A stretch of DNA of 64,000 nt from an uncultured Alphaproteobacteria bacterium (GCA_944392815.1 CALXXY010000001.1:192001-256000), one strand, 5' to 3'; positions 7,784-43,430 are shown, numbered from the stretch's first letter. A program made the numbers and translations. Notes: a model not told the origin generated them from the sequence alone.

Positions 7784-7859
7784 GCCAGTTTAGCTCAGCT
7801 GGTAGAGCATCTGATTTGTAATCAGAGGGTCGTTGGTTCAAGTCCGACAACTGGCACCA
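7784..7859 (+). tRNA. tRNA-Thr(TGT)
   Basis: GCCAGTT/AACTGGC acceptor stem; anticodon arm TCTGA-TT-TGT-AA-TCAGA; GGTTCAAGTCC; encoded CCA. Confidence 0.97.
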
Positions 7860-7861
7860 GA
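7810..7861 (+). repeat. attL core (3' part of tRNA-Thr)
   Basis: TCTGATTTGTAATCAGAGGGTCGTTGGTTCAAGTCCGACAACTGGCACCAGA, identical to 22207-22258. Confidence 0.95.
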
Positions 7862-7889: not shown

Positions 7890-7928
7890 ATTTTTATACT
7901 TAAATATTCCCTGCCCTTTATTTATTTT

Positions 7929-7950
7929 TTTGCTACCTATTTGCTACTGA
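7929..7950 (+). repeat. Putative integrase arm-type sites (2x TTTGCTAC)
   Basis: TTTGCTACCTATTTGCTACTGA; the same motif occurs four times at 22062-22110. Confidence 0.7.
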
Positions 7951-8013
7951 GAACATTTAAAATTGTTCTGTATTATTATTGAATATTATATATTTTTATA
8001 TATCATACAACCT

Positions 8014-11182: not shown

Positions 11183-13399
11183 TTATATTTCTTTATCTCG
11201 CTGTTTTTTATGTTCTTCATAAATGCTTTTCATACGCTCAGTTACCACAAGCTCAGCTTCTTTTATATCAAATTTATCTTTTAAGATACTTCTATAACGC
11301 ATAAAATGTATGATGCTAATTTGGCTAAGTTCATCAGAGACTATCAAATTCCATAATAAAACAATGACTTTCTTTACTTCGCTTGTGGTATACTTTGGGC
11401 TTTTAGTGAAATAATCATCATAATACCTATTTATACAGTAAAATAAATTTTCACAATTTTTTACTACACTTTCTAAATATGCTCTATCCGATAACACATC
11501 TAAGAAAACCTTATCTTTCTCTAAAATAAGATCAAATACGCTAGACAGCTCTAGTTTTGTGTTGGGATAGTCATTATTAAATGTTTTGTATTTTTCCCCC
11601 ATCCTGTTCTTGTACTCTTGCTTTATCCTTTCTTTCATTTGTTTTATAATAGTAGCAAGACTATCGTGTTCTATACTCGGGGTAATATATTCACAACACT
11701 CATCAAAAAGCTCCCCCAATTCTTTCAATGTAAAACCAGACAGACTCTTATCAAGCATCATACTCAAGAAATCTTTCTTAGCAGATATAATTTCTTGATC
11801 TTTAATACCAACTATACGAGGCTTATGCAAAAATAAATTTATTAAATTTGTAGAATAAATCGTCCATTCGTCAGACTTTTGCATAATGTCCTTACCAACT
11901 TCCAAGGCCATAAGCATATTACTCTTATGTCTTTGCATTTCATGATCCACAGTTTGAGTACCTATATTCATTTCGTACATATTGTATATATTTACGATAT
12001 CTCTTAATGCAAATGCGGATTTTTTATTTCTTATGTATTTTTCTACATCTTCTTTGGTCTCACATTTATCAAACTCTTTAATGGTTATTATAATGGCTTT
12101 AGAATTATCAGAATAATCTATAAAAAACTCTTCTCTTTTTCCTTCATCAAACATTTTATGAGTCAGATCTTTTATAAGAAGGTAATTTGAATTTTTCTTA
12201 TTACAGTATCGGCCTACAAGAATATCCAGTTCTTTTTTTTGTTGTTCAACTGCTTCTTCTTTATTTCTACTAATAGCTAAATCTATATTGCTTTTTATAT
12301 CTGTGCTCAATTTTAAAGCATAAAATAAATCACCCGCGACATACCTAAATATTATCGATAATAAAAATGCTTTTTTATCGATTTCAAACGGATAAAATCT
12401 TTGTAACTCAACCTCTCGTTCTAACAAATCCCTTAAAATTGTTTTTATTTGTCTGGGATTATTTGGAAAAGAATCCGCATTCCTAATTAGAAAATCCTCT
12501 GTGAAGATTTTGGCTTTTCTAAAGTCTCCTGTTAAAAGTTTTTTCAAGAAATACCTTTTCGAATCATTTGTCATTGCTGGGATATAAAAATGAAAATCAA
12601 TAAATTTATTTATAAATTCGATATTCCAAAGAGCATTTCCCGCTTCTTTCAAAGAAAGGTCTACCTTATCTCTGTCCAACAAGAAAATAAAATTAAAATT
12701 TTCAATTCCAAATAAATCAGATAATTTTGTAAATAAATTTGGAATATCTTCAAATTTTGGGCTTCTATCTATATCATCCAAAACAATTATAAAATTTTTA
12801 TTCTTTGATAACTTCTTTAGTTTTGTTTTTTTCTTTTCATAAGACAAACGAAATAAATCTTGTATTGTACCAAAATATGAAGGTAGTTTTACTTTATCAA
12901 ATATTCTAGGCAACATTAAAAAGGCAGAAAAAAGGGAAACAGGTAATATAATTTTAATATATGGAATTAACAGAATAAAAGAATCAAATAAAAAATACTT
13001 TGTGCATATTATATCTGACAAACAAACTGCCAACCAAGCACAAAATACATATTTCATAAATCCATAAAATAGCCTTTTACTTTTCTGGCACAAATTATAA
13101 TTAGTTAATATTTCTAATAAAGCATCTACTATTTCATCTGAATTTTTATATGCCCACGTATTAAAATCTATAAAGATATATTCTTTCCTAGCCAATTCTT
13201 TCACCATACCAATGATGGATGTTTTTCCGCTTCCCCATTCACCATAAAGACCCATATTACAGCCCTTTTTTATACCATCGGTATCTTTATAACTAATATT
13301 TTTATTTTTTATCGTGCTAACTATATTTTGTGCTATTGTTGCAAAACCTAATAAATCTTTTTCAACATTAACTGTTGGAACTTCTGCCAAATTATTCAT
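11183..13399 (-). CDS. KAP-family P-loop NTPase
   Basis: Walker A GEWGSGKTS, FNTWAY, two TM helices between the Walker motifs, Walker B IIVLDDIDR, FINKFIDFHFYIP, NNPRQIK. Confidence 0.88.
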   Translation of the reverse strand: MNNLAEVPTVNVEKDLLGFATIAQNIVSTIKNKNISYKDTDGIKKGCNMGLYGEWGSGKTSIIGMVKELARKEYIFIDFNTWAYKNSDEIVDALLEILTNYNLCQKSKRLFYGFMKYVFCAWLAVCLSDIICTKYFLFDSFILLIPYIKIILPVSLFSAFLMLPRIFDKVKLPSYFGTIQDLFRLSYEKKKTKLKKLSKNKNFIIVLDDIDRSPKFEDIPNLFTKLSDLFGIENFNFIFLLDRDKVDLSLKEAGNALWNIEFINKFIDFHFYIPAMTNDSKRYFLKKLLTGDFRKAKIFTEDFLIRNADSFPNNPRQIKTILRDLLEREVELQRFYPFEIDKKAFLLSIIFRYVAGDLFYALKLSTDIKSNIDLAISRNKEEAVEQQKKELDILVGRYCNKKNSNYLLIKDLTHKMFDEGKREEFFIDYSDNSKAIIITIKEFDKCETKEDVEKYIRNKKSAFALRDIVNIYNMYEMNIGTQTVDHEMQRHKSNMLMALEVGKDIMQKSDEWTIYSTNLINLFLHKPRIVGIKDQEIISAKKDFLSMMLDKSLSGFTLKELGELFDECCEYITPSIEHDSLATIIKQMKERIKQEYKNRMGEKYKTFNNDYPNTKLELSSVFDLILEKDKVFLDVLSDRAYLESVVKNCENLFYCINRYYDDYFTKSPKYTTSEVKKVIVLLWNLIVSDELSQISIIHFMRYRSILKDKFDIKEAELVVTERMKSIYEEHKKQRDKEI

Positions 13400-13700
13400 A
13401 CATATGCCCTTTCATTATAAAGAATTGTATTATAATAGTATAAAACTAAATTCCTAGCATTAGAATAATGCGCCTCTAAAAGGCTATTAAAATTATCATC
13501 ATAAAAATATCAAAATTTGATGCATATTGACTACTTTCACTTATTTAACATAATTATTACCAAGAGTACTTCATTATAACAACAATAAGGAACTCTTATT
13601 CATATGTTTTTGGACAATTTAAAGATCACCTATCGATTTAAACTTGCACTTAGATCATCATTAAAAGCTCAAGGAGTTTGTTGCCATATTAGCACACCCT

Positions 13701-14129
13701 TCATCCCTTTATATACGAATCAAATTTTTCTATAAAACTGCGTGCATTTAAAAACAACAACCTTACCTGTTCCATATTTATATGATTAATATTTATCGAT
13801 GCTGTATGCGCGCTACTCTGATTCCTTAGATTTTTAATTTGCTGAATTGACGAAATTTCCTCGAATAAAAATACATTCTGTCCATTAGCACCAAGAACCC
13901 CTCTACAGTGATCAAACACATCTTCCGGTTCTTTAGCATTGCATTTTTCACGTATTAAAATCAAATTAGCTTGTACATACTCATCAATTTCTGCATTAAT
14001 TTTTACGATATAATATTCTGCTAATATGGCATTCAAAAGGCCATAATTATTCCCGATTTTGACACTATCAGGAATTTCTTGCAAAATATTATTTATCAAC
14101 TGCAAAAGCTGTTCCGAACTATTAAGCAC
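13701..14129 (-). CDS. HEPN-domain protein (putative RNase)
   Basis: Helical 142-aa ORF with IKNLRNQSSAH (RxxxxxH) motif near the C-terminus; 10 bp downstream of the DUF262 gene. Confidence 0.65.
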   Translation of the reverse strand: MLNSSEQLLQLINNILQEIPDSVKIGNNYGLLNAILAEYYIVKINAEIDEYVQANLILIREKCNAKEPEDVFDHCRGVLGANGQNVFLFEEISSIQQIKNLRNQSSAHTASININHINMEQVRLLFLNARSFIEKFDSYIKG

Positions 14130-14139
14130 TAGTAAAACC

Positions 14140-15186
14140 CTATTTCAGTATATTTCTAGCTATTTCTAGTCGGGTATCAACGAATTTTTTTGACGTTGTC
14201 CCATTACCCCTCAGAATAATTTCCATATACTCTGGGTTTTGCTTTAAAAGTTCAAATTTTTCGGGTAAATTTTCCACTTCCCCGTTGTGCATCAATGCCA
14301 CTATTACCGAGTCAAGCAAAGTATAATTTGGAATATGGCTTTTATTTATTGAAAAGGGATGTTCTGGTAATACATTATCAATTTGTTCCACTGCTTTTAA
14401 GAAAAGTTCTTGCACATCTGTCTTTTCGCTATTTTTGTTAGACTCCATATATTCATTTAGATAAGACTTCATTACCCCCGTATATTCCACTTCATAAAAA
14501 GCGAAACAACGAAGCACTAACTCCAAATCCAAGAAACGCTTTCCCAGTCCTTGTACCCCCAATATATTTTGCCAATGCATATTTTTATTTGTCTCTTCTA
14601 AAACCATAAGAAATTTGCCGTATGCTATACTTCTTCGAATTTCCATATTATTCAAAGACACCCCTCCGGTATTTAATCTTTCAAAAATCTTATATAAAAT
14701 AGACCTATCGTTAAAATTTGTTGGACGTATAACAGTCGCTGACAACACAACATTTTGCAATCTTCGTTGTTGCACTTGATCTAATTCACTAAACTTTTTA
14801 TTACAATATGGGCTATTTTCATTTAACTTTTTTAATTTGAATTCATCATTTAAAAAGGCCGCAATAGTACTTATACGCTGCAAACCATCAACAATAGAAA
14901 AACTTGCGCCATCTTTTGTAAACAAAAACACCGGAGGGACAGGCAACCCCATAAAAAAAGATTCTATTAAACGAGATTTACGAACATCATCCCACACGGG
15001 CCGACGTTGAAAATCAGGTACATTAAAAGTATGGTCTTTAAAATATTTAGAGTAATTTTCTAGCGTGTAAAAAGCGGGATATGTATTAATTTCATAATTT
15101 GTATTATCAGGCTCCATTTCGTCTTCTTCGATAATTTCTCTTTGTTTATCAATTTCTTCTAACCGCAATAAAACATCATCTGCCAT
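14140..15186 (-). CDS. DUF262 (ParB-like/GmrSD N-terminal) domain protein
   Basis: PDFQRRPVW, LIESFFMGLPVP, VDGLQRISTI, IFERLNTGG. Confidence 0.9.
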   Translation of the reverse strand: MADDVLLRLEEIDKQREIIEEDEMEPDNTNYEINTYPAFYTLENYSKYFKDHTFNVPDFQRRPVWDDVRKSRLIESFFMGLPVPPVFLFTKDGASFSIVDGLQRISTIAAFLNDEFKLKKLNENSPYCNKKFSELDQVQQRRLQNVVLSATVIRPTNFNDRSILYKIFERLNTGGVSLNNMEIRRSIAYGKFLMVLEETNKNMHWQNILGVQGLGKRFLDLELVLRCFAFYEVEYTGVMKSYLNEYMESNKNSEKTDVQELFLKAVEQIDNVLPEHPFSINKSHIPNYTLLDSVIVALMHNGEVENLPEKFELLKQNPEYMEIILRGNGTTSKKFVDTRLEIARNILK

Positions 15187-15466: not shown

Positions 15467-16663
15467 ATGCGGTTATCATCTATTCCGTACTCTGCGAGTA
15501 TAAACTTACTTCAGTGCAATAAATCTGTTCCTTGTAATCGTTTACTGGCCGACACAAACCTTATTCAACAAAATAGCCCTGGACATATTATATATACACC
15601 AATAGTTCAAAAAATAAAAAAGAACATTGAAAACATCACATTGGAAAACGCTGAGAAATACGGTTTCAATGAAATGCTGTTTCCGGTTTTGATGGAAACC
15701 AAGCTTTTAGACGCATCAGGCAAAACTCAAGAATATGCCGATGAATTTTATGCACCGTCCGATTCAAAAGGAAATTTGATTATCTCGCCAACCACGGAAG
15801 AAAGACTGATAGATTTTGTGGCACGCAGTGGCGTTTTATCCTATAAATCATTGCCTATGCGATTTTCACAGGTGTCTAATGTATACAGAAATTTGAAAAG
15901 AACTGAAGGATTGTATAAATCACGAGAAATTTCATGTGTTGTTTTGACTGCTATTGACAAAGATAATGCAACTTATTTACAAACAATGAAAGATTTCAGA
16001 TTGTTATGTGAAGAATCATTCAAACAAATGGGCATCCCAAATTTTTATATCCAAGATAAAATGTCTGGCGCAGTTGAATTCTTTTATACAACAGAGTTAG
16101 CTGATAGACCGCTAAGCAAAAGTATTATCAACAACTTTGGAAACAAGAACAAGTTTGAAACCCAAGAATTGTTTGGTAGTTTATCCATGGGCTATCCTTT
16201 TAAACAGAGTGAAAATTTCAATTTATTTTACACGGACAACAGAGGCACACGCAAGAAACCTGTAGTCAGCACATATGGTATCGGAACCCAACGTTGTATC
16301 CACACATTATTTGAACAAGCGAAAAACGGGCGTACAGATGCGTTTTCTCCAGCGGTACGTCCTTTTGACGTTGATATTATTGTATTATCCAAAGACACCC
16401 AACATGCTCAAATTAAGATATTGGCCGAACAATTGCAAAAAAATAAGATCCATTATTGTATCGACGATCGTAATAATAGCATGAAAGATAAAATGCGATT
16501 TTCGGAATTCTTTTCCATACCATGTCGTATTATTATCGGTGACAAAGAAATTGCACAACAACAATATTCTGTAAAACCGTTGACGGTAAATGAGCCAATG
16601 TATGTTGATATAGCAAAAGCAATAGAACTTGTAAAACAATTAACAATAGAGAGAGTGAGATGA
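15467..16663 (+). CDS. Divergent prolyl-tRNA synthetase-like protein (class IIa core + anticodon domain, altered motifs)
   Basis: SPTTEE, SYKSLPMRFSQ, degenerate motif 2 YRNLKRTEGLYKSREI, motif 3 STYGIGTQR, anticodon domain IDDR..IPCRIIIGDKE. Confidence 0.8.
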   Translation: MRLSSIPYSASINLLQCNKSVPCNRLLADTNLIQQNSPGHIIYTPIVQKIKKNIENITLENAEKYGFNEMLFPVLMETKLLDASGKTQEYADEFYAPSDSKGNLIISPTTEERLIDFVARSGVLSYKSLPMRFSQVSNVYRNLKRTEGLYKSREISCVVLTAIDKDNATYLQTMKDFRLLCEESFKQMGIPNFYIQDKMSGAVEFFYTTELADRPLSKSIINNFGNKNKFETQELFGSLSMGYPFKQSENFNLFYTDNRGTRKKPVVSTYGIGTQRCIHTLFEQAKNGRTDAFSPAVRPFDVDIIVLSKDTQHAQIKILAEQLQKNKIHYCIDDRNNSMKDKMRFSEFFSIPCRIIIGDKEIAQQQYSVKPLTVNEPMYVDIAKAIELVKQLTIERVR

Positions 16664-17664
16664 CCCGACCTGTATCTTCCTGGAACAACCCAAAGCAACA
16701 CTTAGACAAACTGTTAACAACACCTTGGTATAGAGTCATTAACAAAATATTTTCTGAGATATTGGTACTTACTCACGATTTTTATAAAACTGAAAATATT
16801 GCACCCACAATTTTTCCAATTACTACTGGTTCTGTCAGTAGTCCTTTTGGGCTTGGGAGTGATTCTTTGCCAGTAAAAATCAAAATTAAGAATAATGACA
16901 TATATTTGGCAGATTCTATGCAGTTTTCATTGGAAATTGCATCTCGCTTGAACACCAATGGAGCATATTATATTATGCCGTCTTTTCGTGGCGAAGATAT
17001 GGATGCCCGTCATCTTAACGAATTCGTTCATTCAGAGGTCGAAATAAAGGGCTCTCTGGACGATGTTATGGCGTTGGCCGAACGTTACATAAAATTTCTT
17101 ATCAAGGGATTAAAGTTATCTTGCGCAACAGAAATTACAGAAGTATGTGGCACAACGGAACACTTAGATACAGCTTTGGCACGTCCATTTCATAAAATTA
17201 GATTTGAAACCGCTATGCAAGAATTAGCCAGCGTCGAGGATGCATTTAAAAGGTTGGATGATAAATTATACGCTATTACATCTGCTGGAGAACATGCGTT
17301 GATTGACAAATATGGTGATTTTACATGGATAACAAACATGCCTCACAAAGCAGTGCCTTTCTATCAAGCAGAAGAACCTGACACAGAATATTCTATGACA
17401 GGCGATTTACTGGCTGGAATTGGCGAAATATTAGGCTGTGGACAACGTGTATTCTCAGCTCAAGACGCAATTAATTCTTTAGATAATCACAATATTGACA
17501 AGACTGGTTATCAATGGTATATCCACATGCGTGAAATAAATCCTCTACAAACATCAGGCTTTGGAATGGGGATAGAGCGGTTTATTTTATGGTTGTTAAA
17601 ACACAACGACATCCGTGATTGCACTTTACTGATTCGCAACCACAAGGATGTCGTATTTCCTTAA
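16660..17664 (+). CDS. AsnRS-like catalytic-domain-only enzyme (AsnRS2 / archaeal-type asparagine synthetase family)
   Basis: YLADSMQFSLE, motif 2 PSFRGEDMDARHLNEF, motif 3 TSGFGMGIERF; no N-terminal OB fold; ATGA overlap with the upstream gene. Confidence 0.85.
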   Translation: MTRPVSSWNNPKQHLDKLLTTPWYRVINKIFSEILVLTHDFYKTENIAPTIFPITTGSVSSPFGLGSDSLPVKIKIKNNDIYLADSMQFSLEIASRLNTNGAYYIMPSFRGEDMDARHLNEFVHSEVEIKGSLDDVMALAERYIKFLIKGLKLSCATEITEVCGTTEHLDTALARPFHKIRFETAMQELASVEDAFKRLDDKLYAITSAGEHALIDKYGDFTWITNMPHKAVPFYQAEEPDTEYSMTGDLLAGIGEILGCGQRVFSAQDAINSLDNHNIDKTGYQWYIHMREINPLQTSGFGMGIERFILWLLKHNDIRDCTLLIRNHKDVVFP

Positions 17665-18629
17665 TGTTTAAGGATAGTTAAAGAATTATCAGAAATTTTT
17701 ACCTGACCACCAATTGGTAAGGTTACCATTGGATAAGTGTGTCCAAAATCGATGTTGGCCAGCACAGGCATAGCCTTTAATTCTGGATGAATATTAAATA
17801 TAGAGACAATATCTTCTTTAGATATTTCGTTTTTCTGTTCCATGCGTCCAAACAATATTCCACGAACATTTTTAAACCAGGGTTGATGTATTGTGGATTG
17901 CAAAATTCTATCCAATATGTACTTGTTACCACCCTCTATTTCCACCGCCAAAATCACATCTTCATCAATGGGCATATACTGTGTGCCATACAACAATTGG
18001 ACAGTTGTGGCTTCGCCACCAATCAGGGTACCGGTAGCATTTCCATGGTTAATTACCCAAAAGCCGTCGTTTTCATGAAAAGTTCTATCTTCTTGGTTTA
18101 TAAACCATTCAGGGTCGTCACTCCATTTTGTGCTGGCCACTAATGTCTTTTCAGAATTATCAAACAGTATGTGTTTCAAATAGTCCATAGAATAATCTGC
18201 GCCGTATTTCATTCCCAATGTAGAAAAATGTGGTCCATAATATGAAACAATACCTGTTTTTGCCAGTATTGCGTTTTGTAATGCAGCAATGTCAGAATAC
18301 CCGATTAACATCTTAGGATTTTGCCTTATCAAATCATAATCTATTAAATCCAGCAACTGATTAGAATTAAAACCACCAATAACTGTGAATATAGCTTTTA
18401 CATTACTGTCTTTATACGCATCGTGAATATCGTTCAGACGGGCCACCACAGGTGAAGAAACAAAGGCGTCTATAATGTCCAGATTTTTCCCAAAAGATAC
18501 TTTCAACCCCATATCTTCCAATCTTTGTTGGGCCAAGGCTCTTACATCTTCGCCAATAATTTTATACGACATAGCCGGCGCAATAATACGTACTTCATCA
18601 CCAGCTTTTAGTTTTTGTGGAAAAATCAT
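17661..18629 (-). CDS. S66 peptidase (MccF / LD-carboxypeptidase family)
   Basis: PQKLKAGDEVRIIAPA, IGGFNSNQLL, GYSDI (Ser), AVEIE (Glu), DFGHTYP (His). Confidence 0.92.
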   Translation of the reverse strand: MIFPQKLKAGDEVRIIAPAMSYKIIGEDVRALAQQRLEDMGLKVSFGKNLDIIDAFVSSPVVARLNDIHDAYKDSNVKAIFTVIGGFNSNQLLDLIDYDLIRQNPKMLIGYSDIAALQNAILAKTGIVSYYGPHFSTLGMKYGADYSMDYLKHILFDNSEKTLVASTKWSDDPEWFINQEDRTFHENDGFWVINHGNATGTLIGGEATTVQLLYGTQYMPIDEDVILAVEIEGGNKYILDRILQSTIHQPWFKNVRGILFGRMEQKNEISKEDIVSIFNIHPELKAMPVLANIDFGHTYPMVTLPIGGQVKISDNSLTILKH

Positions 18630-18640
18630 CTCTCTCTCCT

Positions 18641-19465
18641 TTATTTATTTGTGCCAAATACAAATATATTATTACCACGAGCAGCCACATCATTGTTTTT
18701 GATATGCTCTTTTTCCATATCAAAAATCCGTTGAAAAATTTCTTTATTTTCTAGTATATCGGCTATTTCGCCAGTTTGTCCACGCAATTGGGTTTCTTGA
18801 TACCCAGGATAAATCAGATTTGGAAAACCAGAACAAAAATCAACTGTTATATTATGCTTTTTCATCATATCCTTGATGCTGTTCGGCGAGAACATATTAA
18901 TATATGGCATTTGATCTGTAAAACGACCACGTCCAGACAGACATTTATTTGCCTCATCAATATTTCCCAGTTTTGTATTAAAGAATGCTGCGTGATACAT
19001 ATTTGGTGCCAATGTACAAATTATACCGCCTTTTTTTGTTACGGATTTTAACTGTTCAAAAAAATTATCAACATTTTCACCTACGAAACCGATAACATTA
19101 TGAAAATTAAATACAAAATCAAACTGTTCGTCTACTTGTGACAAATCGTTCAAATCTTGTAACATAAAATCCCATCTTCCCTGATACGGAATTGACTTAT
19201 GTTTAGCTACATCCAACATTTCTTTGGAAAAGTCTATCGTAACACCAGAACACTCTGGAAATTCCTCTAATAATTTATGAGACCAACGACCTGTACCACC
19301 ACCCGCATCACAAAACCTGAAATTCTTAGGTAATTTAGGAATAATATATGTTTTTATGGAATCCCACAACAGGGCATCTGATAACCGCCAATAACTTTGA
19401 TTTTCTACCAAGTCATATTCTGATGCTTTCTCTGCAAAATATTTTAATACAGAATCTTTGTACAT
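18641..19465 (-). CDS. Class I SAM-dependent methyltransferase
   Basis: FCDAGGGTGRW, TIDFSKEMLDVA, FDFVF, KKGGII. Confidence 0.9.
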   Translation of the reverse strand: MYKDSVLKYFAEKASEYDLVENQSYWRLSDALLWDSIKTYIIPKLPKNFRFCDAGGGTGRWSHKLLEEFPECSGVTIDFSKEMLDVAKHKSIPYQGRWDFMLQDLNDLSQVDEQFDFVFNFHNVIGFVGENVDNFFEQLKSVTKKGGIICTLAPNMYHAAFFNTKLGNIDEANKCLSGRGRFTDQMPYINMFSPNSIKDMMKKHNITVDFCSGFPNLIYPGYQETQLRGQTGEIADILENKEIFQRIFDMEKEHIKNNDVAARGNNIFVFGTNK

Positions 19466-19478
19466 AGAACCCTCCTCT

Positions 19479-20756
19479 TTATCTAAGTTTTGTCTGTTGT
19501 GTTAATCTTATTAAATCGTTAACTGACATCTGTGTAACGTTACCATTTTTGCGATCTTTTACCTCGACATTGCCTGTATTAAAGAATGTTTTACCGATAA
19601 TTATTCTATTTGGAATACCAATAAGGTCACTTTCTGCAAATTTAATACCTCCACGTACATCTTTGCGGTCGTCATATAAGACATCAAATTGTGCATTTAA
19701 TAACTGTTGATATATATTGTCTACAACAGCTATTTCGTCATCTTTTACCGCCATTGAAATTAGATGCCATTCAAACGGCGCTATTTTAGCAGGCCATACC
19801 AATCCCCTGTCGTCACTTAAGCACTCTGCAACAGTACCCATAACACGGCTTGGACCAATACCATAACACCCCATGATAATAGGTTTGCTTTGGCCCTTGT
19901 TATCAATAAAATTCGCATCAAACGGTGCTGTGAAACGTGTACCAAGCTTAAATATGTTTCCAACTTCTACAGCGCGTTTTTGTTCAAATGTTTTTTCTAT
20001 ACCATCCGTATAGTTTGGAATAATATCGCGCAAAGCACATTTATCTCCGATAATTTCACGATTGATAGCAATTTTTGTCCCTGGAATTATATAAATGGTA
20101 TCTTCACCGGCATCGGTCAATGTTTGGAATTCATGAGAATATTTTGCAAACGCACCTCCACTGGCATATGTAAAATAAGTTTTATCACCAATACCACAAT
20201 CCGTGTAGAACTCCATATACATTTGAGCAACTTTTTCATAATACATATCTAAATCTGCCTGACTTTCATGAAAAGAATACAAATCATTCATACGAAATTC
20301 TTTACACCGGAACAAGCCAGACTTTGAACGAGGTTCATCTCTGAACTTGTTTTGAATCTGAAATACCGCCTTTGGCAAGTCTTTATAAGAAGAGATAAAA
20401 TTAGTCACAAAAGGCGTAACAACCTCTTCGTTTGTTGGACTTAAGGCATATTCTTTATCTGCATGGCCATGAATCTTATATAAAACATCTATCTTATCCC
20501 AACGACCGGTTTGCTTCCAAACATCTGACGGCTGCAAAACAGGCATCATAACTTCTTGGCCGTTTACAGTTTGCATATACTGACGGATTAAATTCTCAAT
20601 TTTGTTCAATGTTCTAAAGCCCAATGGCATATAAGAATAAGCCCCCCCCATTAATTTATGAATAAAGCCTGCGCGTGTCAACAACTGGGCGTTTTTAGAC
20701 ATCTCTTGTACATTGGAGGCTTTTTGTGTTTTATAAAACAAGTTACTTTGGCGCAT
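19479..20756 (-). CDS. proS: Proline--tRNA ligase paralogue, bacterial type without INS editing domain
   Basis: LLTRAGFI..GAYSYMPLG, TGRW, SPTNEE, SYKDLP..FQIQNKFRDEPR..GLFR.KEF.M.DLYSFH, EVGNIFKLG, MGCYGIGPSR, DLIGIP. Confidence 0.9.
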   Translation of the reverse strand: MRQSNLFYKTQKASNVQEMSKNAQLLTRAGFIHKLMGGAYSYMPLGFRTLNKIENLIRQYMQTVNGQEVMMPVLQPSDVWKQTGRWDKIDVLYKIHGHADKEYALSPTNEEVVTPFVTNFISSYKDLPKAVFQIQNKFRDEPRSKSGLFRCKEFRMNDLYSFHESQADLDMYYEKVAQMYMEFYTDCGIGDKTYFTYASGGAFAKYSHEFQTLTDAGEDTIYIIPGTKIAINREIIGDKCALRDIIPNYTDGIEKTFEQKRAVEVGNIFKLGTRFTAPFDANFIDNKGQSKPIIMGCYGIGPSRVMGTVAECLSDDRGLVWPAKIAPFEWHLISMAVKDDEIAVVDNIYQQLLNAQFDVLYDDRKDVRGGIKFAESDLIGIPNRIIIGKTFFNTGNVEVKDRKNGNVTQMSVNDLIRLTQQTKLR

Positions 20757-20883
20757 AACAAATACCTTTTGTGTTGCCTACATATACACTCTTCTGTGCT
20801 AAGAATACCGAAATCATAGGAAAAATCAAGAAGTTCTTGAATATAAAGCTATCAAAAAACAGCGTTTATAGTCCATATTAAAA

Positions 20884-22056
20884 TCATACACTGTTTATCA
20901 TCCTATCCACGGCTTTTTGCATAGAGGCACGGACTGGATCGGCAGACAAACGGGCATAAATAGCAGTTGCAGCGGTTGATTTATGCCCCAAAGACCTGCC
21001 AATTACATTCATGCTTGCTCCTGTAATCGCTTGATAACTTCCCATAGTTCTACGTAAATCATGTAGTCGTAGATTATCTATATTCGCTCGTCTTAGAAGA
21101 CTTTTCCATGCACGTTTTGGCTCTTCCAGATGGCCACTGGCACTTTGTTCACTTGGTAACACCCAAGAACTATTACTATTTTGTTTAATTTTTAATAATA
21201 ATTCTCTTAACTGTTCGATAATCGGGACCTGCATAGGTTCACCATTTTTAGTATCTGATAAGTATATAAAGCCATTTACTAAGTCTATCTGAGACCAGCG
21301 CAGGCTCAATACATTACTTCTACGCTGTCCAGAATATAGAGAAATCAGCACATAATTCTTAAACACATCATTGGGTTCGTTATTTAATGCGTCAAACAAT
21401 CGTTTTAATTCGTCATCTCGTAAAAATCTATCCCGACTTATTTCCCTGAACATTTTTATACCATCAGTTGGATTTTCAAAACGTTTCGGGAATCCGCATT
21501 CATAAGCTTTGTTATACATATGTCTGATAAGCGCCAGCATACGATTGGCGGTATACGAACTTACCGTTTGTCGCAAGAAGTTATGATGTCGCGCTACTTC
21601 ATCACGGCTTATTGTTCGCATCTGACGATTATGAAATACAGACAAATGATTTCTAAAAGTAGCATTATCGTTAATTTGCGTTTTCTGCTTTTTATGCGTT
21701 AAGGAATGCACAGGTAAATATACTTTTTCATAATATTCTTTCAATGTCATATCATGCAATTCATCAAAGCGTTCTTGCGCTGGATCTTCGCCGCATATTG
21801 CCCTTTCACGCATTGTATGCGCTTTACGACGCGCAGTTTCCAATTCAACATGTCCGAACTTACCTATCTTTATACGTTTAGGCATCCCCTGATATTTCAT
21901 ATAGGCATAAAATGTTTTAGAGCCACCATAAGAAACAATTAAACACAGACCATCTTTTGAGCCTGAATCATAATACACAACCTGGTTTTTTTCCTTGGTT
22001 GGAATAGGCAAAGAAGCTATTGCTTTTTTAGTAAAATTTATGGTCTGTGTTTTCAT
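20884..22056 (-). CDS. int: Tyrosine recombinase/integrase with N-terminal arm-binding domain (P4-like)
   Basis: YYDS..DGLCLIVS..GSKTF arm-binding domain; SGQRRSN, TKNG, HDLRRT, LGHKS, Y catalytic residues. Confidence 0.95.
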   Translation of the reverse strand: MKTQTINFTKKAIASLPIPTKEKNQVVYYDSGSKDGLCLIVSYGGSKTFYAYMKYQGMPKRIKIGKFGHVELETARRKAHTMRERAICGEDPAQERFDELHDMTLKEYYEKVYLPVHSLTHKKQKTQINDNATFRNHLSVFHNRQMRTISRDEVARHHNFLRQTVSSYTANRMLALIRHMYNKAYECGFPKRFENPTDGIKMFREISRDRFLRDDELKRLFDALNNEPNDVFKNYVLISLYSGQRRSNVLSLRWSQIDLVNGFIYLSDTKNGEPMQVPIIEQLRELLLKIKQNSNSSWVLPSEQSASGHLEEPKRAWKSLLRRANIDNLRLHDLRRTMGSYQAITGASMNVIGRSLGHKSTAATAIYARLSADPVRASMQKAVDRMINSV

Positions 22057-22061
22057 ATTTT

Positions 22062-22110
22062 TTTGCTACTTATTTGCTACTGATGGCATTTTTTGCTACC
22101 GTTTGCTACC
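22062..22110 (+). repeat. Putative integrase arm-type sites (4x TTTGCTAC)
   Basis: Copies at 22062, 22073, 22092 and 22102, between the int start codon and attR. Confidence 0.7.
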
Positions 22111-22206: not shown

Positions 22207-22258
22207 TCTGATTTGTAATCAGAGGGTCGTTGGTTCAAGTCCGACAACTGGCACCAGA
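22207..22258 (+). repeat. attR core (duplicated 3' part of tRNA-Thr)
   Basis: 52-bp exact copy of 7810-7861; followed by a CCCCGC..GCGGGG hairpin, probably the native tRNA terminator. Confidence 0.95.
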
Positions 22259-22313: not shown

Positions 22314-22695
22314 TCAATATCCCGACACGACCAAACTGTGTATTAAATCGTTAATTTGTTTGGCTATTGCTGTGGAATCAAAACGTTTTAAGCCATTGGT
22401 TGCGATATCTGACATTTGTTTGGCTTTTGCCGGGTGTTCAAAAACAAACTTCATGTTTTTTGCCAACGCGTTGGCATCGCCAGTTTCAAATAATAAACCG
22501 CCGCGTCCATTCAACAGTATTTCACGTGGTCCGTTTTTACACTTGGACGAAATGCAGGGAACACCCAATGCCACAGATTCAAGCAACACTGTCGGCAGCC
22601 CTTCGCTTTCGCTGGATAAAATATTTGCAATGGCGCCCCGCATAATGCCATATGGATTATTCAGGGCACCAGTAAACACAATGCGTTTTACGGAC
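22314..22695 (-). pseudogene. Glycosyltransferase family 4, C-terminal fragment only
   Basis: IVFTG..NPY..ILSSESEGLPTVLLESVALGVPCISS..GPREIL; N-terminal domain absent. Confidence 0.8.
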
Positions 22696-23144
22696 GGCAA
22701 TTGGGGCAATTATTAAATGAACTGCAATCAAACGATATTTTAATTGCCGCCGAGATATCACGGCTGGGTCGATCTTTGCTGGAGGTCATGCATATACTGG
22801 AATACTGTTTGAATAAAAATTGCCAGGTGTGGACCATCAAAGAAAATTACAGATTGGGCAACGATATTCAATCCAAAGTTATGGCGTTTGCGTTTGGATT
22901 ATCGGCCGAAATAGAACGCAATTTAATATCGCAACGAACCAAGGCGTCATTGGAAAGCGTGCGGGCAACCGGCAAACGATTGGGGCGGCCTTTTTCGGCG
23001 CAATCAAAAAAATTGAAACTGTCCAGCAATACCAAAAAAGTAAAAAAATTGTTGGACATGGGGTTGACCAAGTATCGGATTGCCAAAATAATGCAGGTTA
23101 AACAATCAACTGTATCCAGATTTATTGTCCGAATGGGCTGGTGA
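22695..23144 (+). pseudogene. Serine recombinase (Mpi-type DNA invertase), 5'-truncated
   Basis: AEISRLGRS, YRLGNDIQSKVMAFAFGLSAEIERNLISQRTK, LGRP, C-terminal HTH; no YxRVS catalytic motif; in-frame stop at 22617. Confidence 0.8.
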
Positions 23145-29018: not shown

Positions 29019-30455
29019 TTAATATGATTTTGCAACATATACGTATGTTGGGTCATTATCGTCCAGGCACCGGCGCGATATTTTGTATTTTTCCATCAAT
29101 TCATCAAATTTTTCATTTGTTGTTAAATCGTATTTAATACGGAAAAATCCAATTTTACCGGCCGCCAATGCTGATTCCAGTGCGTCAATATCCGCAACAT
29201 CGTGAATCATAGTTTCATTGCGACGAACGACCGCGTCATACATATCGTGCTGGATTTGTTCCAACATATTTTTCACGTCGGCCACAAATGCGTCCGTGGA
29301 CATAGTTTGTTTTGATGATTTACCCAAATCACGACGTGTGACCGTCACATTGTTTTCGTCCATTTCACGCGCGCCAATTTCCACACGCAGTGGCACGCCG
29401 CGCTTAATCCATTTCCACATTTTATCCGGCGCGCGCATATCAGATGTATCAACCAACACACGCACGTCGATGTTTTCCAATTGTTCGCCCAATTTCTGTG
29501 CGAACGCGTTTAATGCGTCGGCCGTGTCGTCACGCGTGATTGGGATAATCACAACCTGGTACGGGGCGATGGCGGGCGGCAACACCAGCCCATCGTCGTC
29601 GGAATGCGTCATGAACAAACTGCCCATCATACGCGTGGATACGCCCCACGATGTTGTCCAGGCATGTTTTAACGCACCATCTGTATCCAAAAATTGAATA
29701 CCGAATGATTTTGAAAAATGCTGGCCCAGGTCATGTGATGTTCCGGCCTGTAAAGCTTTGCCGTCCTGCATAATGTGTTCCAGTGTATATGTGTGATCGG
29801 CACCGGCAAATCGTTCCTCGGGCGTTTTTTCACCCATGATTGACGGTATGGCCAAAATTTCGCGCATATAGTCACCATACACGCGGTGCATTTTACGCGC
29901 GTCTGCATTTGCCTCTTCATGTGTGGCGAATGCGTTGTGACCTTCCTGCCAATAAAATTCTGATGTGCGCAGGAACAGGCGTGGCCGCATTTCCCAACGC
30001 ATAACATTTACCCACTGATTCAATTTCAGCGGCAAATCGCGATACGATTGTACCCAACGCGACATTGCGTCACCGATAATTGTTTCAGACGTCGGACGAA
30101 TAACATACGGTTCCGTTAATTTTGCGTCTGGGTCGGGCTGTAATGTGCCGTCAATCATTTTCAGACGATAATGCGTGACAACGGCGGCCTCTTTGGCAAA
30201 GCCGGCGACATGTTCGGCCTCGCGATTAAAAAAATTGATTGGTATCAGTAATGGGAACTGAGCATTTTGCGCGCCACATTTTTTTATGCGTTTGTCCAAT
30301 GCATCACGCATCAATTCCCAAATGGCCCAACCATACGGCTTTATCGTCATGCACCCACGCACAGGCGCATTTTCCGCCAAATCGGCCGCAGTTATCAGGT
30401 TTTGATACCATTCGCTGAAATTTTCCGAACGGGTCGGTGTAATTGCTGTTTTCAT
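29019..30455 (-). CDS. proS: Proline--tRNA ligase, archaeal/eukaryotic type (housekeeping)
   Basis: FSEWY, VRGC, EHVAGFAKE, RPTSET, SYRDLPL..NQW.NV.RWE, WQEGH, LQAGTSH, TTSWGVSTR. Confidence 0.95.
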   Translation of the reverse strand: MKTAITPTRSENFSEWYQNLITAADLAENAPVRGCMTIKPYGWAIWELMRDALDKRIKKCGAQNAQFPLLIPINFFNREAEHVAGFAKEAAVVTHYRLKMIDGTLQPDPDAKLTEPYVIRPTSETIIGDAMSRWVQSYRDLPLKLNQWVNVMRWEMRPRLFLRTSEFYWQEGHNAFATHEEANADARKMHRVYGDYMREILAIPSIMGEKTPEERFAGADHTYTLEHIMQDGKALQAGTSHDLGQHFSKSFGIQFLDTDGALKHAWTTSWGVSTRMMGSLFMTHSDDDGLVLPPAIAPYQVVIIPITRDDTADALNAFAQKLGEQLENIDVRVLVDTSDMRAPDKMWKWIKRGVPLRVEIGAREMDENNVTVTRRDLGKSSKQTMSTDAFVADVKNMLEQIQHDMYDAVVRRNETMIHDVADIDALESALAAGKIGFFRIKYDLTTNEKFDELMEKYKISRRCLDDNDPTYVYVAKSY

Positions 30456-40910: not shown

Positions 40911-41102
40911 GCGAAAACTTCCCTTCTATTACATATGATTTTATCATATTGTGCAATTTCGTGCAAATAAAAAAGTCATTTGTCAAACGCTATTTTTTCA
41001 ACAAATGCAATTATTCCCAATTTATTAAATTATTTAATGAATTTGACATTTGACCTGTTTATGGTTATATTGTTATCCTGGACAAATACCAAGGGTGCAA
41101 AA

Positions 41103-43427: not shown

Positions 43428-43430
43428 TTT

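What the first reader, a model, noticed from the sequence alone, without database searches (positions are those of the whole stretch)
15467..20756. Island-borne five-gene aaRS-paralogue cluster: candidate prolyl-adenylate-mimic biosynthesis/self-resistance system
Seen: two convergent operons, [divergent ProRS-like -> AsnRS-like without anticodon domain] and [intact bacterial-type ProRS -> SAM methyltransferase -> S66 peptidase]. They sit in a tRNA-integrated island, while a complete housekeeping ProRS of the other type is at 29019-30455. Established: MccF (S66) detoxifies microcin C by cleaving aminoacyl-adenylate analogues; the agrocin 84 cluster pairs an AsnRS-like enzyme lacking the anticodon domain (AgnA) with a resistant aaRS copy (AgnB2); phosmidosine is an O-methylated N-prolyl-phosphoramidate nucleotide. 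Inference: the divergent ProRS and AsnRS-like enzyme build an aminoacyl-N-P-adenosine, the MTase caps it, and the intact ProRS plus the MccF-like enzyme give immunity. The neighbouring defence genes suggest an alternative role as an infection-triggered translation poison. A pure resistance cassette is also possible. No exporter or carrier peptide is visible in the cluster.
Basis: partly seen in the sequence, partly recalled or inferred. Interest (0 to 1): 0.92.

Follow-up and report, generated by a model that had tools for sequence, protein, structure and literature searches.

The report
Minimal agrocin-84-like ProRS-inhibitor gene cassette
A mobile five-gene cassette in tiny gut and rumen bacteria looks like the smallest known relative of the agrocin 84 antibiotic gene cluster, probably making a prolyl-adenylate mimic that blocks prolyl-tRNA synthetase while carrying its own spare synthetase and a detoxifying enzyme.

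Summary
All five genes lie at the stated coordinates, in a 14.4-kb low-GC island bounded by a perfect 52-nt repeat of the tRNA-Thr 3' end. The host (0.93 Mb genome) has a separate type I ProRS.

- **Conservation:** the five genes, and only those five, recur in the same order in 7 of 9 related loci; the other 2 are cut by contig ends. The loci come from small Alphaproteobacteria MAGs and metagenomes and have different flanks.
- **Link to agrocin 84:** g2 is 44 % identical over its full length to AgnA, the agrocin 84 "synthetase". The agn cluster also holds an S66 "MccF-like" gene, SAM methyltransferases, a remote ProRS-like protein and a resistant aaRS.
- **Modular pattern:** ten AgnA-type cluster kinds were examined. 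They share a recurrent core (AgnA-like, methyltransferase, S66) plus a variable pair of a divergent aaRS paralogue and a full aaRS (LeuRS, AlaRS, here ProRS).
- **g5:** the cassette ProRS has fixed substitutions in otherwise invariant catalytic motifs.
- **Caveats:** there is no exporter, g4 is not an AgnB1/MccD orthologue, g1 shows no similarity to AgnC1, and no product is known.

It is a new variant of a known but biochemically unsolved kind.

The parts
7784..7861 (+). tRNA-Thr(tgt) and attL: the first copy of the 52-nt direct repeat is at 7810-7861
   Evidence: ARAGORN, Rfam tRNA 72.6 bits, repeat family D2 at 100 % identity
15410..15437 (+). Promoter-like element of the g1-g2 operon (TTGACT, 16-nt spacer, TACCAT), followed by an RBS
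   Evidence: Consensus scan. This is the only part of the upstream region conserved across 9 loci, and there is no conserved small ORF
15467..16663 (+). g1: divergent ProRS paralogue with a retained anticodon-binding domain; candidate prolyl-selecting or prolyl-transferring enzyme
   Evidence: Pfam and NCBIfam. Small tight family: 29 hits at 46-100 % identity, then a drop to 24 %. Profile best matches ProRS structures. Motif 2 Arg, motif 3 Arg and the T and E of the PT.EE loop are kept; the motif 2 Glu is lost. Anticodon-to-catalytic conservation ratio is 0.75, against 0.69-0.77 in bona fide ProRS
16660..17664 (+). g2: AgnA-type AsnRS catalytic core without an anticodon domain; candidate maker of the phosphoramidate (N-P) nucleotide
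   Evidence: 43.8 % identity over full length to AgnA of pAgK84, E 4e-102. 41-46 % identity to the counterparts in Xenorhabdus, Streptomyces and Peribacillus clusters. Motif 2 FRGE and motif 3 GIER are kept
17661..18629 (-). g3: S66 serine peptidase of the MccF-like clade; candidate hydrolase of the prolyl-N bond
   Evidence: PDB scores: BA_5613 'MccF-like' 309 bits, B. anthracis MccF 146, E. coli MccF 109, LdcA 59 or less and only partial alignments. Ser118 and His311 equivalents and a conserved Glu are kept; Phe sits at the W186 adenine-stacking position
18641..19465 (-). g4: class I SAM-dependent methyltransferase, substrate unknown
   Evidence: Pfam. Generic hits only in PDB and the ESM Atlas. 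Not in the AgnB1/MccD family
19479..20756 (-). g5: INS-less bacterial-type ProRS, the second ProRS of the genome; candidate inhibitor-insensitive copy and possibly the Pro-tRNA supplier
   Evidence: TIGR00409 407 bits, above the cut-off. Every carrier genome has another ProRS. Fixed substitutions at otherwise conserved motif positions: H109N, L149F, G151C, R152K, K157N and others
20800..20831 (-). Promoter-like element of the g5-g4-g3 operon
   Evidence: Conserved block (CTTG.T, spacer, G.TA..CT) about 45-75 nt upstream of the g5 ATG in 8 loci. Coordinates derived by me from the alignment positions
20884..22056 (-). Tyrosine integrase of the island (P4-type arm-binding domain plus Phage_integrase)
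   Evidence: Pfam. A 52.6 % identical integrase sits next to the cassette in L003
22207..22258 (+). attR: second copy of the 52-nt repeat
29019..30455 (-). Housekeeping type I ProRS, outside the island; presumed sensitive target or normal enzyme
   Evidence: TIGR00408 455 bits, above the 437 cut-off

Best explanation
The five genes form a self-contained, horizontally mobile biosynthesis-plus-self-protection cassette. Its likely product is a prolyl-adenylate mimic of the agrocin 84 / phosmidosine type: an N-prolyl phosphoramidate of adenosine that inhibits prolyl-tRNA synthetase.

Proposed roles (inferred, not shown):
- g2, the AgnA-type AsnRS core, uses ATP to make the constant nitrogen-phosphorus nucleotide part, for example adenosine 5'-phosphoramidate.
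- g1, the ProRS paralogue that keeps its proline-loop residues, nucleotide-site arginines and anticodon-binding domain, supplies the prolyl group. It could do so from its own Pro-AMP, or, as AcmF does in ascamycin biosynthesis, from Pro-tRNA(Pro).
- g4 methylates the product or an intermediate.
- g5 is an inhibitor-insensitive ProRS that keeps translation going and may also supply Pro-tRNA.
- g3, the MccF-like S66 hydrolase, cleaves the prolyl-N bond of product that accumulates in the cell.

Shown here: gene identities, cassette conservation, homology to AgnA, and the recurring modular architecture. Inferred: the product, the order of steps, and the role of each enzyme.
For: 1. **Conserved unit.** All five genes occur in the same order and orientation in 7 of 9 related loci, and the other 2 are cut by contig ends. 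They are the only ORFs shared among the window and L001-L009. Both operons have their own conserved promoter-like elements. Cassette GC is constant at 0.35-0.39 while flank GC ranges from 0.33 to 0.52.

2. **Homology to the agn cluster.** g2 is 43.8 % identical over full length to AgnA. The agn cluster also has an S66 'MccF-like' AgnC5 (28.9 % to g3, E 6e-40), SAM methyltransferases, resistant LeuRS AgnB2 and AgnC1. PMC8323819 section 18 reports AgnC1 as remotely ProRS-like.

3. **Modular pattern in the 10 AgnA-type cluster kinds examined**:
   - a divergent aaRS paralogue in 7 of 10;
   - a full aaRS in 5 of 10: LeuRS twice, AlaRS twice, ProRS here;
   - in the AlaRS and ProRS cases the paralogue and the full enzyme are of the same type;
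   - a class I methyltransferase in 9 of 10;
   - an S66 gene in 7 of 10.

4. **Links to microcin C immunity and tailoring.**
   - AgnB1-type methyltransferases are MccD homologues (E 2e-24 to 2e-29).
   - The GNATs in L010 and next to the L009 cassette match the MccE2 immunity domain (E 7e-13 and 3e-11).
   - g3 aligns end to end with MccF structures, not LdcA.
   - g3 keeps Ser118 and His311 and has an aromatic residue at W186.

5. **g5 is always an extra ProRS.** Every carrier genome has another ProRS: G000, G002 and G005 type I, G001 and G003 type II, G004 both. In G005 the g5 gene itself lies beyond a contig end. The g5 clade has 11-16 fixed changes at positions at least 93 % conserved in 111 related ProRS, several in motif 2 and the PTHEE loop. 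That is the highest count among the 75 clades tested.

6. **Precedent.** In ascamycin biosynthesis AcmD (AlaRS), AcmF (AlaRS-like aa-tRNA-dependent N-acyl transferase) and AcmE (deacylase) form the same kind of trio (PMC12945691, passages).

7. **Not plain Asn synthesis.** The host has GatB but no AsnRS above cut-off, so g2 is unlikely to be a plain asparagine synthetase for translation.
Against: - **No exporter.** There is none in the cassette or conserved in its flanks (0 of 10 loci). By contrast 7 of the other 9 cluster kinds have an MFS, ABC or AgnG pump beside the cluster, and B. pseudomycoides has an ABC pair about 8 kb away.
- **g4 is a different methyltransferase.** It is not orthologous to the AgnB1/MccD-type enzymes: best 26 % over 211 aa, and E 7.5 against MccD.
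- **g1 versus AgnC1.** There is no detectable similarity by BLASTP or profile comparison. The link runs only through the Xenorhabdus and Streptomyces counterparts (E 1e-20 and 1e-46).
- **The cluster S66 proteins are only 23-34 % identical to each other.** g3's closest solved relatives are stand-alone proteins of unproven function.
- **The g5 substitutions could reflect drift** in a mobile paralogue. The control clades come from a sample chosen by similarity to g5.
- **g2 is split into two ORFs in L007**.
- **The agrocin 84 pathway is itself unsolved** (PMC8323819 section 18; PMC12596934 passage), so enzyme roles rest on analogy.
- **No product has been detected.**
- **The AlphaFold model of g1 was too poor to use** (pLDDT 60.5).
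Confidence: 0.7

Rival explanations
1. Same chemistry, different biology. The cassette is an inward-facing 'addiction' module. It makes a ProRS inhibitor that stays in the cell and blocks the host's own ProRS, so the cell depends on the island's insensitive ProRS and S66 hydrolase. This would stabilise the integrative island in very small genomes.
For: No exporter in or near the cassette in any of 10 loci, unlike most other AgnA-type clusters. The cassette always travels on mobile, low-GC DNA with integrases and different tRNA sites: tRNA-Thr here, and a tRNA-Ser gene near the cassette in L001 and L003. Carrier genomes are only 0.9-1.0 Mb.
Against: There is no direct evidence. The cassette is rare even among close relatives (0 of 36 same-genus genomes), which does not suggest strong stabilisation. 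General transporters could export the product. Bradyrhizobium also lacks a pump next to its cluster.
Confidence: 0.15
2. Resistance and bypass cassette only. g5 and g3 protect against a ProRS inhibitor made by other community members, and g1, g2 and g4 have unrelated or accessory roles.
For: Stand-alone MccF homologues that give resistance exist (PMC8323819 passage). Housekeeping ProRS type varies among carriers, and one carrier (G004) has three ProRS genes, which hints at selection on ProRS in this community.
Against: g1 and g2 are strictly co-inherited with g3-g5. g2 is an AgnA homologue, and the pairing of AgnA-like with an aaRS paralogue recurs in producer-type clusters that have pumps.
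Confidence: 0.07
3. Anti-phage abortive-infection system that poisons translation on infection.
For: In the window the cassette lies beside defence genes: an NsnA/PD-T4-2_A-like GmrSD-domain protein and a KAP NTPase. L008 has a GmrSD-like neighbour.
Against: The defence neighbours are not conserved with the cassette. There are no PADLOC matches for g1, g2, g3 or g5. A constitutive resistant ProRS and hydrolase would defeat an abortive poison. The cassette was not found on viral contigs.
Confidence: 0.04
4. Primary-metabolism patch for a reduced genome: asparagine synthesis (g2), a spare ProRS (g5, g1) and muropeptide trimming (g3).
For: NCBIfam's best names are 'asparagine synthetase A' and 'muramoyltetrapeptide carboxypeptidase'. 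The genomes are tiny.
Against: Both scores are far below the family cut-offs: 240 against 389, and 87 against 378. The host has GatB and no AsnRS. g3 matches MccF-type structures rather than LdcA. The cassette is absent from 36 of 36 same-genus genomes sampled, so it is not core metabolism.
Confidence: 0.04

Closest known systems
Agrocin 84 (agn) cluster of pAgK84, Rhizobium rhizogenes K84
   Same: AgnA-type AsnRS core without an anticodon domain (44 % identity to g2). An S66 'MccF-like' gene. SAM methyltransferases. A second, cluster-borne copy of the target aaRS. A mobile replicon. A ProRS-like second synthetase, as reported for AgnC1 in PMC8323819.
   Different: The agn cluster has 17 genes, the cassette 5. 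The immunity aaRS is LeuRS there and ProRS here. The cassette has no AgnG-type pump, no genes for the modified pentanamide, the 3'-deoxy sugar or the N6 glucofuranosyl-phosphate uptake group. g4 is not an AgnB1 orthologue, and g1 shows no detectable sequence similarity to AgnC1.
Ascamycin AcmD/AcmF/AcmE system (Streptomyces sp. 80H647)
   Same: A bona fide aaRS, a divergent paralogue of the same aaRS and a deacylating hydrolase, all in one cluster making an aminoacyl-adenylate mimic. The paralogue N-acylates an NH2 on the nucleoside 5' substituent (PMC12945691, passages read).
   Different: The linker there is a sulfamate, not a phosphoramidate, and the enzymes are AlaRS-type. According to that review AcmF has lost most ATP-binding residues, whereas g1 keeps the motif 2 and motif 3 arginines. 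AcmE is an alpha/beta hydrolase, not S66. There is no AgnA-like enzyme.
Microcin C (mcc) operon
   Same: The product class is an aminoacyl phosphoramidate adenylate. It has an S66 MccF immunity enzyme. Its MccD-type SAM enzyme and MccE2-type GNAT have homologues in sister AgnA-type clusters.
   Different: In microcin C the N-P bond is made by the ThiF-like MccB on a ribosomal heptapeptide. Here there is no MccB and no precursor peptide, and class II aaRS-derived enzymes stand in their place. The target there is AspRS.
Phosmidosine (Streptomyces durhameusis)
   Same: As I recall it, phosmidosine is an N-prolyl, O-methyl phosphoramidate of 8-oxoadenosine. PMC7689648's table lists 'Pro-tRNA synthetase?' as its target. 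That matches the combination of a ProRS-type specificity enzyme, a methyltransferase and a ProRS immunity gene.
   Different: No phosmidosine gene cluster was found in print, so no gene-level comparison is possible. The cassette has no oxidase for an 8-oxo group. The Streptomyces NBC_01707 plasmid cluster (L013), which does have a molybdopterin oxidase, fits phosmidosine better.

Membership tests
Agrocin 84-type (Agn-like) aminoacyl-nucleotide gene cluster | AgnA-type enzyme: AsnRS catalytic core lacking the anticodon-binding domain | tested here: met
   g2 is 43.8 % identical to AgnA over 334 of 334 residues, E 4e-102. Pfam shows only tRNA-synt_2, residues 28-324.
Agrocin 84-type (Agn-like) aminoacyl-nucleotide gene cluster | AgnC1-type second synthetase (remote ProRS-like) | tested here: inconclusive
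   g1 is clearly ProRS-derived. It is related to the counterparts in the Xenorhabdus LeuRS cluster and the Streptomyces cluster (E 1e-20 and 1e-46). No similarity to AgnC1 itself was found (BLASTP none; hhalign probability 0.2).
Agrocin 84-type (Agn-like) aminoacyl-nucleotide gene cluster | Cluster-borne extra copy of the target aaRS (AgnB2 role) | tested here: met
   g5 scores above the ProRS cut-off. Every carrier genome has another ProRS. Insensitivity to an inhibitor was not testable.
Agrocin 84-type (Agn-like) aminoacyl-nucleotide gene cluster | AgnB1/MccD-type SAM-dependent enzyme next to AgnA | tested here: not met
   The enzymes of agn, Xenorhabdus, Streptomyces, L010 and Peribacillus are mutually 29-48 % identical over about 270 aa and match MccD at E 2e-24 to 2e-29. 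g4 is not in that group: best 26 % over 211 aa, and E 7.5 against MccD. A class I methyltransferase is nevertheless present.
Agrocin 84-type (Agn-like) aminoacyl-nucleotide gene cluster | Dedicated export pump (AgnG role) | tested here: not met
   No ORF other than the five genes is shared by the 10 loci.
Agrocin 84-type (Agn-like) aminoacyl-nucleotide gene cluster | Product is an N-acyl phosphoramidate nucleotide that inhibits an aaRS | not testable with these tools
   This needs expression and mass spectrometry.
MccF clade of S66 peptidases (as opposed to LdcA) | Ser-His-Glu catalytic residues and the middle region carrying the adenine-stacking aromatic (W186 in E. coli MccF) | tested here: met
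   Ser118 and His311 equivalents and a conserved Glu in the column of E243 are present. Phe stands at the W186 column; the other cluster S66 proteins have W, F or Y there. MccF structures align across residues 3-319, whereas LdcA structures align only to 12-140 or 186/197-312 with 59 bits or less. W186 stacking is stated in PMC8323819. The residue number of the Glu is recalled.
MccF clade of S66 peptidases (as opposed to LdcA) | Hydrolysis of aminoacyl-adenylate analogues | not testable with these tools
   Enzyme assay needed.
Bacterial-type ProRS (TIGR00409) for g5 | Score above the curated cut-off, with class II motifs 2 and 3 and an anticodon domain | tested here: met
   407 bits against the 306.7 cut-off. 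FRDE and GIGPSR motifs are present. The INS editing domain is absent, as in other roughly 420-aa ProRS.
Archaeal-type asparagine synthetase A (NF005055) for g2 | Score above the curated cut-off | tested here: not met
   239.7 bits against the 389 cut-off. The solved archaeal AsnA 3p8t scores only 32 bits, against 84 bits for an AsnRS core.
Known anti-phage defence systems (PADLOC) | Any cassette protein matching a defence family | tested here: not met
   g1, g2, g3 and g5 have no hits. g4 has only a generic methyltransferase-domain hit to mad2.

The most novel reading that the evidence does not exclude
The exporter-less five-gene cassette is a small-molecule 'toxin-antidote' addiction module. 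It makes a non-hydrolysable prolyl-adenylate mimic inside the cell that shuts down the host's own ProRS, so the cell survives only while it keeps the island's insensitive ProRS and S66 hydrolase.

Mechanistically, g1 would be a ProRS running its second step backwards, moving proline from Pro-tRNA onto adenosine 5'-phosphoramidate made by the AgnA-like enzyme. This would be the first metabolite-based addiction system built from aaRS paralogues. It would also solve how N-acyl phosphoramidate antibiotics (agrocin 84, phosmidosine) are assembled.
Probability: 0.15. Interest if true: 0.92.

Novelty: new variant of a known kind. Interest (0 to 1): 0.76.

Why it matters
- **An unsolved pathway becomes testable.** The route by which agrocin 84 gets its aminoacyl-phosphoramidate warhead is still described as unknown in 2021 and 2025 reviews. 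I found no phosmidosine gene cluster in print. A five-gene cassette contains little beyond the presumed core chemistry and self-protection, so it is a minimal system in which each step could be assigned by expression and single-gene deletions.

- **A rule for predicting targets.** Across clusters the pattern is a recurrent AgnA-like, methyltransferase and S66 core plus a swappable pair of an aaRS paralogue and a full aaRS. The target (LeuRS, AlaRS, ProRS; MetRS in the literature) could be read directly from the sequence.

- **A possible new natural ProRS inhibitor.** The source would be uncultured, very small-genome gut and rumen Alphaproteobacteria, a group not known for antibiotic production.

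Tried and rejected
- **AlphaFold2 model of g1** from the 11-sequence family alignment: mean pLDDT 60.5, with the catalytic core mostly below 50. I did not use it and ran no fold search.
- **g1 against AgnC1:** the profile comparison and BLASTP showed no relationship, so the AgnC1 correspondence rests on the review's statement and on intermediate clusters.
- **Small ORF or RNA element upstream of g1 or g5:** no conserved small ORF or precursor peptide, and no Rfam family in the island other than the tRNA.
- **g4 function:** PDB and ESM Atlas gave only generic class I methyltransferases.
- **Viral contigs:** no relative of g1.
- **Relatives:** 0 of 36 same-genus and 0 of 24 other same-order genomes carry the g1 family. 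The six hits at 73-76 bits cover only the C-terminal domain in ORFs of roughly 430-450 aa and are probably housekeeping type II ProRS; I did not verify this.
- **Not used:** Complex prediction, because the report does not claim a specific protein-protein contact, and the search of protein representatives, because canonical ProRS and AsnRS would swamp the hit list and it gives no context.
- **Not examined:** two AgnA-like plasmid hits, Streptomyces changanensis (H18) and Streptomyces sp. NBC_00829 (H19).
- **Papers:**
  - Kim et al. 2006 (PMC1482666) is not held, so its statements are taken second-hand from PMC8323819 and PMC4392301.
  - Figures and supplements of PMC8323819 (Fig. 9, ESI) could not be seen and might list further agn-like clusters.
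  - The phosmidosine structure (prolyl, O-methyl, 8-oxoadenosine) is recalled; the papers held did not spell it out.
- **MccF positions 220 and 247** were chosen from memory as substrate-recognition sites. Their variability is therefore only a weak hint.

Full report
**1. Observation**

- **g1** (15467-16663, +, 398 aa) has a class II G/H/P/S/T core and an HGTP anticodon-binding domain. Its best curated match is ProRS, at only 145 bits against a cut-off of 558.
- **g2** (16660-17664, +, 334 aa) is a class II D/K/N catalytic core with no anticodon domain. It scores 240 bits on an 'asparagine synthetase A' model whose cut-off is 389.
- **g3** (17661-18629, -) has both S66 domains.
- **g4** (18641-19465, -) is a class I SAM methyltransferase.
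- **g5** (19479-20756, -, 425 aa) passes the bacterial ProRS model (407 bits against 306.7) but lacks the INS editing domain.

g1 and g2 overlap by 4 nt, the g2 and g3 stop codons overlap convergently, and g5-g4-g3 are 11-13 nt apart.

The genes lie in a 14.4-kb island:

- It is bounded by a perfect 52-nt direct repeat, 7810-7861 (the 3' part of tRNA-Thr) and 22207-22258.
- An integrase lies at 20884-22056.
- GC is 0.32-0.36 in the island against 0.465 outside.

The host genome is 927 kb and 96.8 % complete. It has one other ProRS, the type I enzyme at 29019-30455.

**2. The cassette is a conserved, mobile unit**

The g1 family is small. A search of 5.8 billion proteins gave 29 hits at 46-100 % identity, then a drop to 24 % for canonical ProRS and ThrRS.

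Pattern scans found 5 loci in species-representative genomes and 5 in metagenome contigs. The genome loci are rumen and gut Alphaproteobacteria MAGs, one named Candidatus Enterousia.

- Of the 9 close loci, 7 carry all five genes in the same order and orientation, at 60-90 % protein identity.
- The other 2 end at a contig edge inside the cassette.
- An all-against-all comparison of ORFs shows that nothing but these five genes is shared across the window and L001-L009.
- Only about 70 nt upstream of g1 (a TTGACT / TACCAT-type promoter plus RBS) and a similar block upstream of g5 are conserved. There is no conserved small ORF.
- Cassette GC stays at 0.35-0.39 while flank GC ranges from 0.33 to 0.52. 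A tRNA-Ser gene lies about 3 kb (L001) and 2.3 kb (L003) upstream of g1, at the edge of the higher-GC left flank.
- None of the 36 same-genus genomes sampled has it.

So the cassette is rare, self-contained cargo that moves between islands.

**3. What it is related to**

g2 is 43.8 % identical over its whole length to AgnA of pAgK84, where the gene is annotated 'Agrocin84-synthetase'. The annotated agn cluster also contains:

- agnC5, 'MccF-like protein', 28.9 % identical to g3 (E 6e-40);
- several SAM methyltransferases;
- the resistant LeuRS AgnB2;
- AgnC1.

[quoted passage not shown] - the agrocin 84 pathway is unknown;
- related clusters exist in Ensifer and in actinobacteria, the latter with MetRS.

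It mentions none with ProRS. I could not detect similarity between g1 and AgnC1. However, g1 is related to the 'aaRS-related' proteins that sit in AgnA-type clusters of Xenorhabdus bovienii (E 1e-20) and Streptomyces sp. NBC_01707 (E 1e-46) and in metagenome locus L010 (E 1e-39).

**4. A modular architecture**

I examined ten kinds of AgnA-type cluster: the window family, L010, pAgK84, Xenorhabdus, Streptomyces NBC_01707, Bradyrhizobium, Peribacillus, Exiguobacterium, Pantoea and B. pseudomycoides.

| Feature | Clusters with it |
|---|---|
| Class I methyltransferase | 9 of 10 |
| S66 gene | 7 of 10 |
| Divergent aaRS paralogue | 7 of 10 |
| Full aaRS | 5 of 10 (LeuRS in pAgK84 and Xenorhabdus, AlaRS in Peribacillus and Exiguobacterium, ProRS here) |
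| Transporter beside the cluster | 7 of 10, plus B. pseudomycoides about 8 kb away; none here or in Bradyrhizobium |

- In Peribacillus the paralogue is a divergent AlaRS catalytic core (75 bits) next to a strongly scoring AlaRS (469 bits). That is the same arrangement as g1 next to g5.
- The AgnA-like proteins are mutually 27-49 % identical over essentially full length.
- The methyltransferases of five clusters form one family (29-48 % identity) that is homologous to microcin C's MccD (E 2e-24 to 2e-29). According to PMC8323819, MccD puts a SAM-derived group on the phosphate of the peptidyl-nucleotide.
- g4 is not in this family.
- L010 also encodes an ABC exporter and a GNAT. L009, a member of the ProRS cassette family, has a GNAT fragment just upstream. 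Both GNATs match the MccE2 immunity domain (E 7e-13 and 3e-11).

These repeated links to MccD, MccE2 and MccF tie the whole group to aminoacyl-phosphoramidate nucleotides.

**5. The individual enzymes**

- **g3** aligns end to end with MccF-type structures: BA_5613 309 bits, B. anthracis MccF 146, E. coli MccF 109. It aligns only in part with LdcA enzymes, at 59 bits or less. It keeps the Ser and His of the catalytic centre and a conserved Glu, and has Phe where MccF's W186 stacks on adenine.
- **g2** keeps motif 2 (FRGE) and motif 3 (GIER). It is closer to AsnRS cores (84 bits) than to the solved archaeal AsnA (32-37 bits).
- **g1 and its counterparts** in L010, Streptomyces and Xenorhabdus share:
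  - the motif 2 Arg;
  - a 'YGIG.QRC' motif 3;
  - the T and E of the ProRS 'PT.EE' loop (except in Xenorhabdus);
  - loss of the Glu of 'FR.E' in all of them.
- **g1's anticodon-binding domain** is conserved relative to its catalytic domain at a ratio of 0.75 (0.52/0.69). In bona fide ProRS the ratio is 0.77 and 0.69. This is consistent with g1 still binding tRNA.
- **g5's nearest non-cassette relatives** are INS-less ProRS at 51-59 % identity, and several of those with source names are from Alphaproteobacteria MAGs.
- **The g5 clade** has fixed changes at positions that are at least 93 % conserved in 111 related sequences:
  - H109N (PTHEE to PTNEE);
  - L149F, G151C and R152K (GLLRGREF to GLFRCKEF);
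  - K157N, E60Y and others.
  - The count is 16 with the intermediate subgroup set aside and 11 with it included.
  - Eleven is the highest count among the 75 clades tested. The best unrelated clade has 7 and the remaining unrelated clades 3 or fewer.
  - The sample was chosen by similarity to g5, so this is suggestive rather than proof.
- **Every carrier genome has another ProRS** besides the cassette copy: type I in G000, G002 and G005, type II in G001 and G003 (426 aa, 36 % identical to g5), and both types side by side in G004. In G005 the contig ends before g5.

**6. Mechanism**

The AgnA-like enzyme is the constant, well-conserved part of these clusters. The aaRS paralogue changes family together with the immunity aaRS. 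The most economical reading is therefore:

- the AgnA-like enzyme builds a common nitrogen-phosphorus nucleotide;
- the paralogue brings in the specific aminoacyl group.

The ascamycin system is an experimentally grounded precedent (PMC12945691, passages):

- AcmD (AlaRS) charges tRNA;
- the AlaRS-like AcmF moves alanine from Ala-tRNA onto the nucleoside's sulfamate NH2;
- AcmE removes it again.

By analogy:

- g5 would charge tRNA(Pro) and resist the product;
- g1 would prolylate the phosphoramidate nitrogen;
- g3 would deacylate stray product.

g1 keeps its nucleotide-site arginines, so a route through its own Pro-AMP is equally possible. An alternative assignment is that g2 makes prolinamide and g1 couples it to ATP. 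A biosynthetic rather than protective role for the S66 enzyme also cannot be excluded. The role of g4 is open. All of these steps are inference.

**7. Rival readings**

- **Plain asparagine synthetase role for g2:** unlikely. The host has GatB (487 bits) and no AsnRS above cut-off.
- **Phage-defence role:** no support. There are no PADLOC matches for the cassette. The neighbours (NsnA/PD-T4-2_A-like, and a KAP NTPase with weak PifA and QatA matches) are separate cargo not conserved with it, and nothing was found on viral contigs.
- **Resistance-only reading:** it does not explain why two synthetase-type genes are strictly co-inherited with g3-g5.
- **The missing exporter:** this is the most striking difference from sister clusters. 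It leaves open an inward-facing 'addiction' role.

**8. Novelty**

The kind is known: agrocin 84-like clusters carrying a resistant aaRS. I found no description of a ProRS-linked member, of this five-gene minimal form, or of its presence in small-genome gut and rumen Alphaproteobacteria. That library lacks most subscription journals, and figures and supplements were not visible. I class it as a new variant of a known kind. Its particular value is as a minimal system for an unsolved pathway.

Noticed in passing
L013 (Streptomyces sp. NBC_01707 plasmid NZ_CP109191.1, record 269178-277320): The cluster runs AgnA-like, MccD-type methyltransferase, FAD subunit plus molybdopterin oxidase, ProRS-like ligase (the best plasmid match to g1), S66, with an MFS pump nearby and no aaRS. 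As I recall the structure of phosmidosine, this gene content would fit it: prolyl, O-methyl phosphoramidate, 8-oxoadenine. It is a candidate phosmidosine-type cluster.
   Followed up: partly
L025 (Peribacillus plasmid NZ_CP068052.1, record 40749-50006) and L027 (Exiguobacterium plasmid NZ_CP053558.1, record 73496-86718): These are AlaRS-linked versions of the same architecture: a divergent AlaRS-core paralogue, a full AlaRS, a methyltransferase, an AgnA-like gene, an ATP-grasp gene and an MFS pump, plus S66 in Peribacillus. They suggest an alanyl-adenylate mimic targeting AlaRS.
   Followed up: partly
L011, L012, L013, L010, L025 against L026 (E. coli mcc operon): The methyltransferases next to AgnA-like genes (the AgnB1 type) are clear homologues of microcin C's MccD (E 2e-24 to 2e-29). 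I did not see this link stated in the passages I read.
   Followed up: yes
G001-G005 and G000; L023 = G004:C68:7600-11400: The housekeeping ProRS type differs among carrier genomes: type I in G000, G002 and G005, type II in G001 and G003. G004 has a type I and a type II gene side by side plus the cassette copy, so three ProRS genes in a genome of about 0.9 Mb. This may reflect selection on ProRS in this community.
   Followed up: partly
L007:11194-12197: In this metagenome locus the AgnA-like gene is split into two ORFs (11194-11931 and 11928-12197). This is either a frameshift (decay) or an assembly error.
   Followed up: no
window 11183-15186: Other island cargo: a KAP-family NTPase (weak PifA and QatA matches), a 142-aa ORF with no family, and a GmrSD_N-domain protein matching NsnA and PD-T4-2_A. 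This is probably a separate defence module.
   Followed up: partly
window 7923-7958 and 22056-22091; 22314-23144: A second repeat (36 nt, 89 % identity) lies just inside attL and just upstream of the integrase start. Beyond attR there are gene remnants: the C-terminal part of a group 1 glycosyltransferase and an N-terminally truncated resolvase. Together they suggest earlier insertions at this tRNA.
   Followed up: no
L028 (Pantoea agglomerans plasmids, e.g. NZ_CP141611.1, record 70565-73076): A 427-aa protein annotated as a GNAT acetyltransferase is in fact an AgnA-like core (residues about 85-427, 41-51 % identical to other AgnA-likes) with a short N-terminal extension. It is followed by an MFS transporter, a very small AgnA-type locus.
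   Followed up: partly
P0027, P0028 (g1-like, 46-47 %) and P0042-P0047 (g5-like, 64-66 %): There seems to be a second, more divergent subfamily of the ProRS cassette. P0028 and P0044 both list a longest contig of 29,797 nt, which suggests they share a contig. The context could not be fetched.
   Followed up: no
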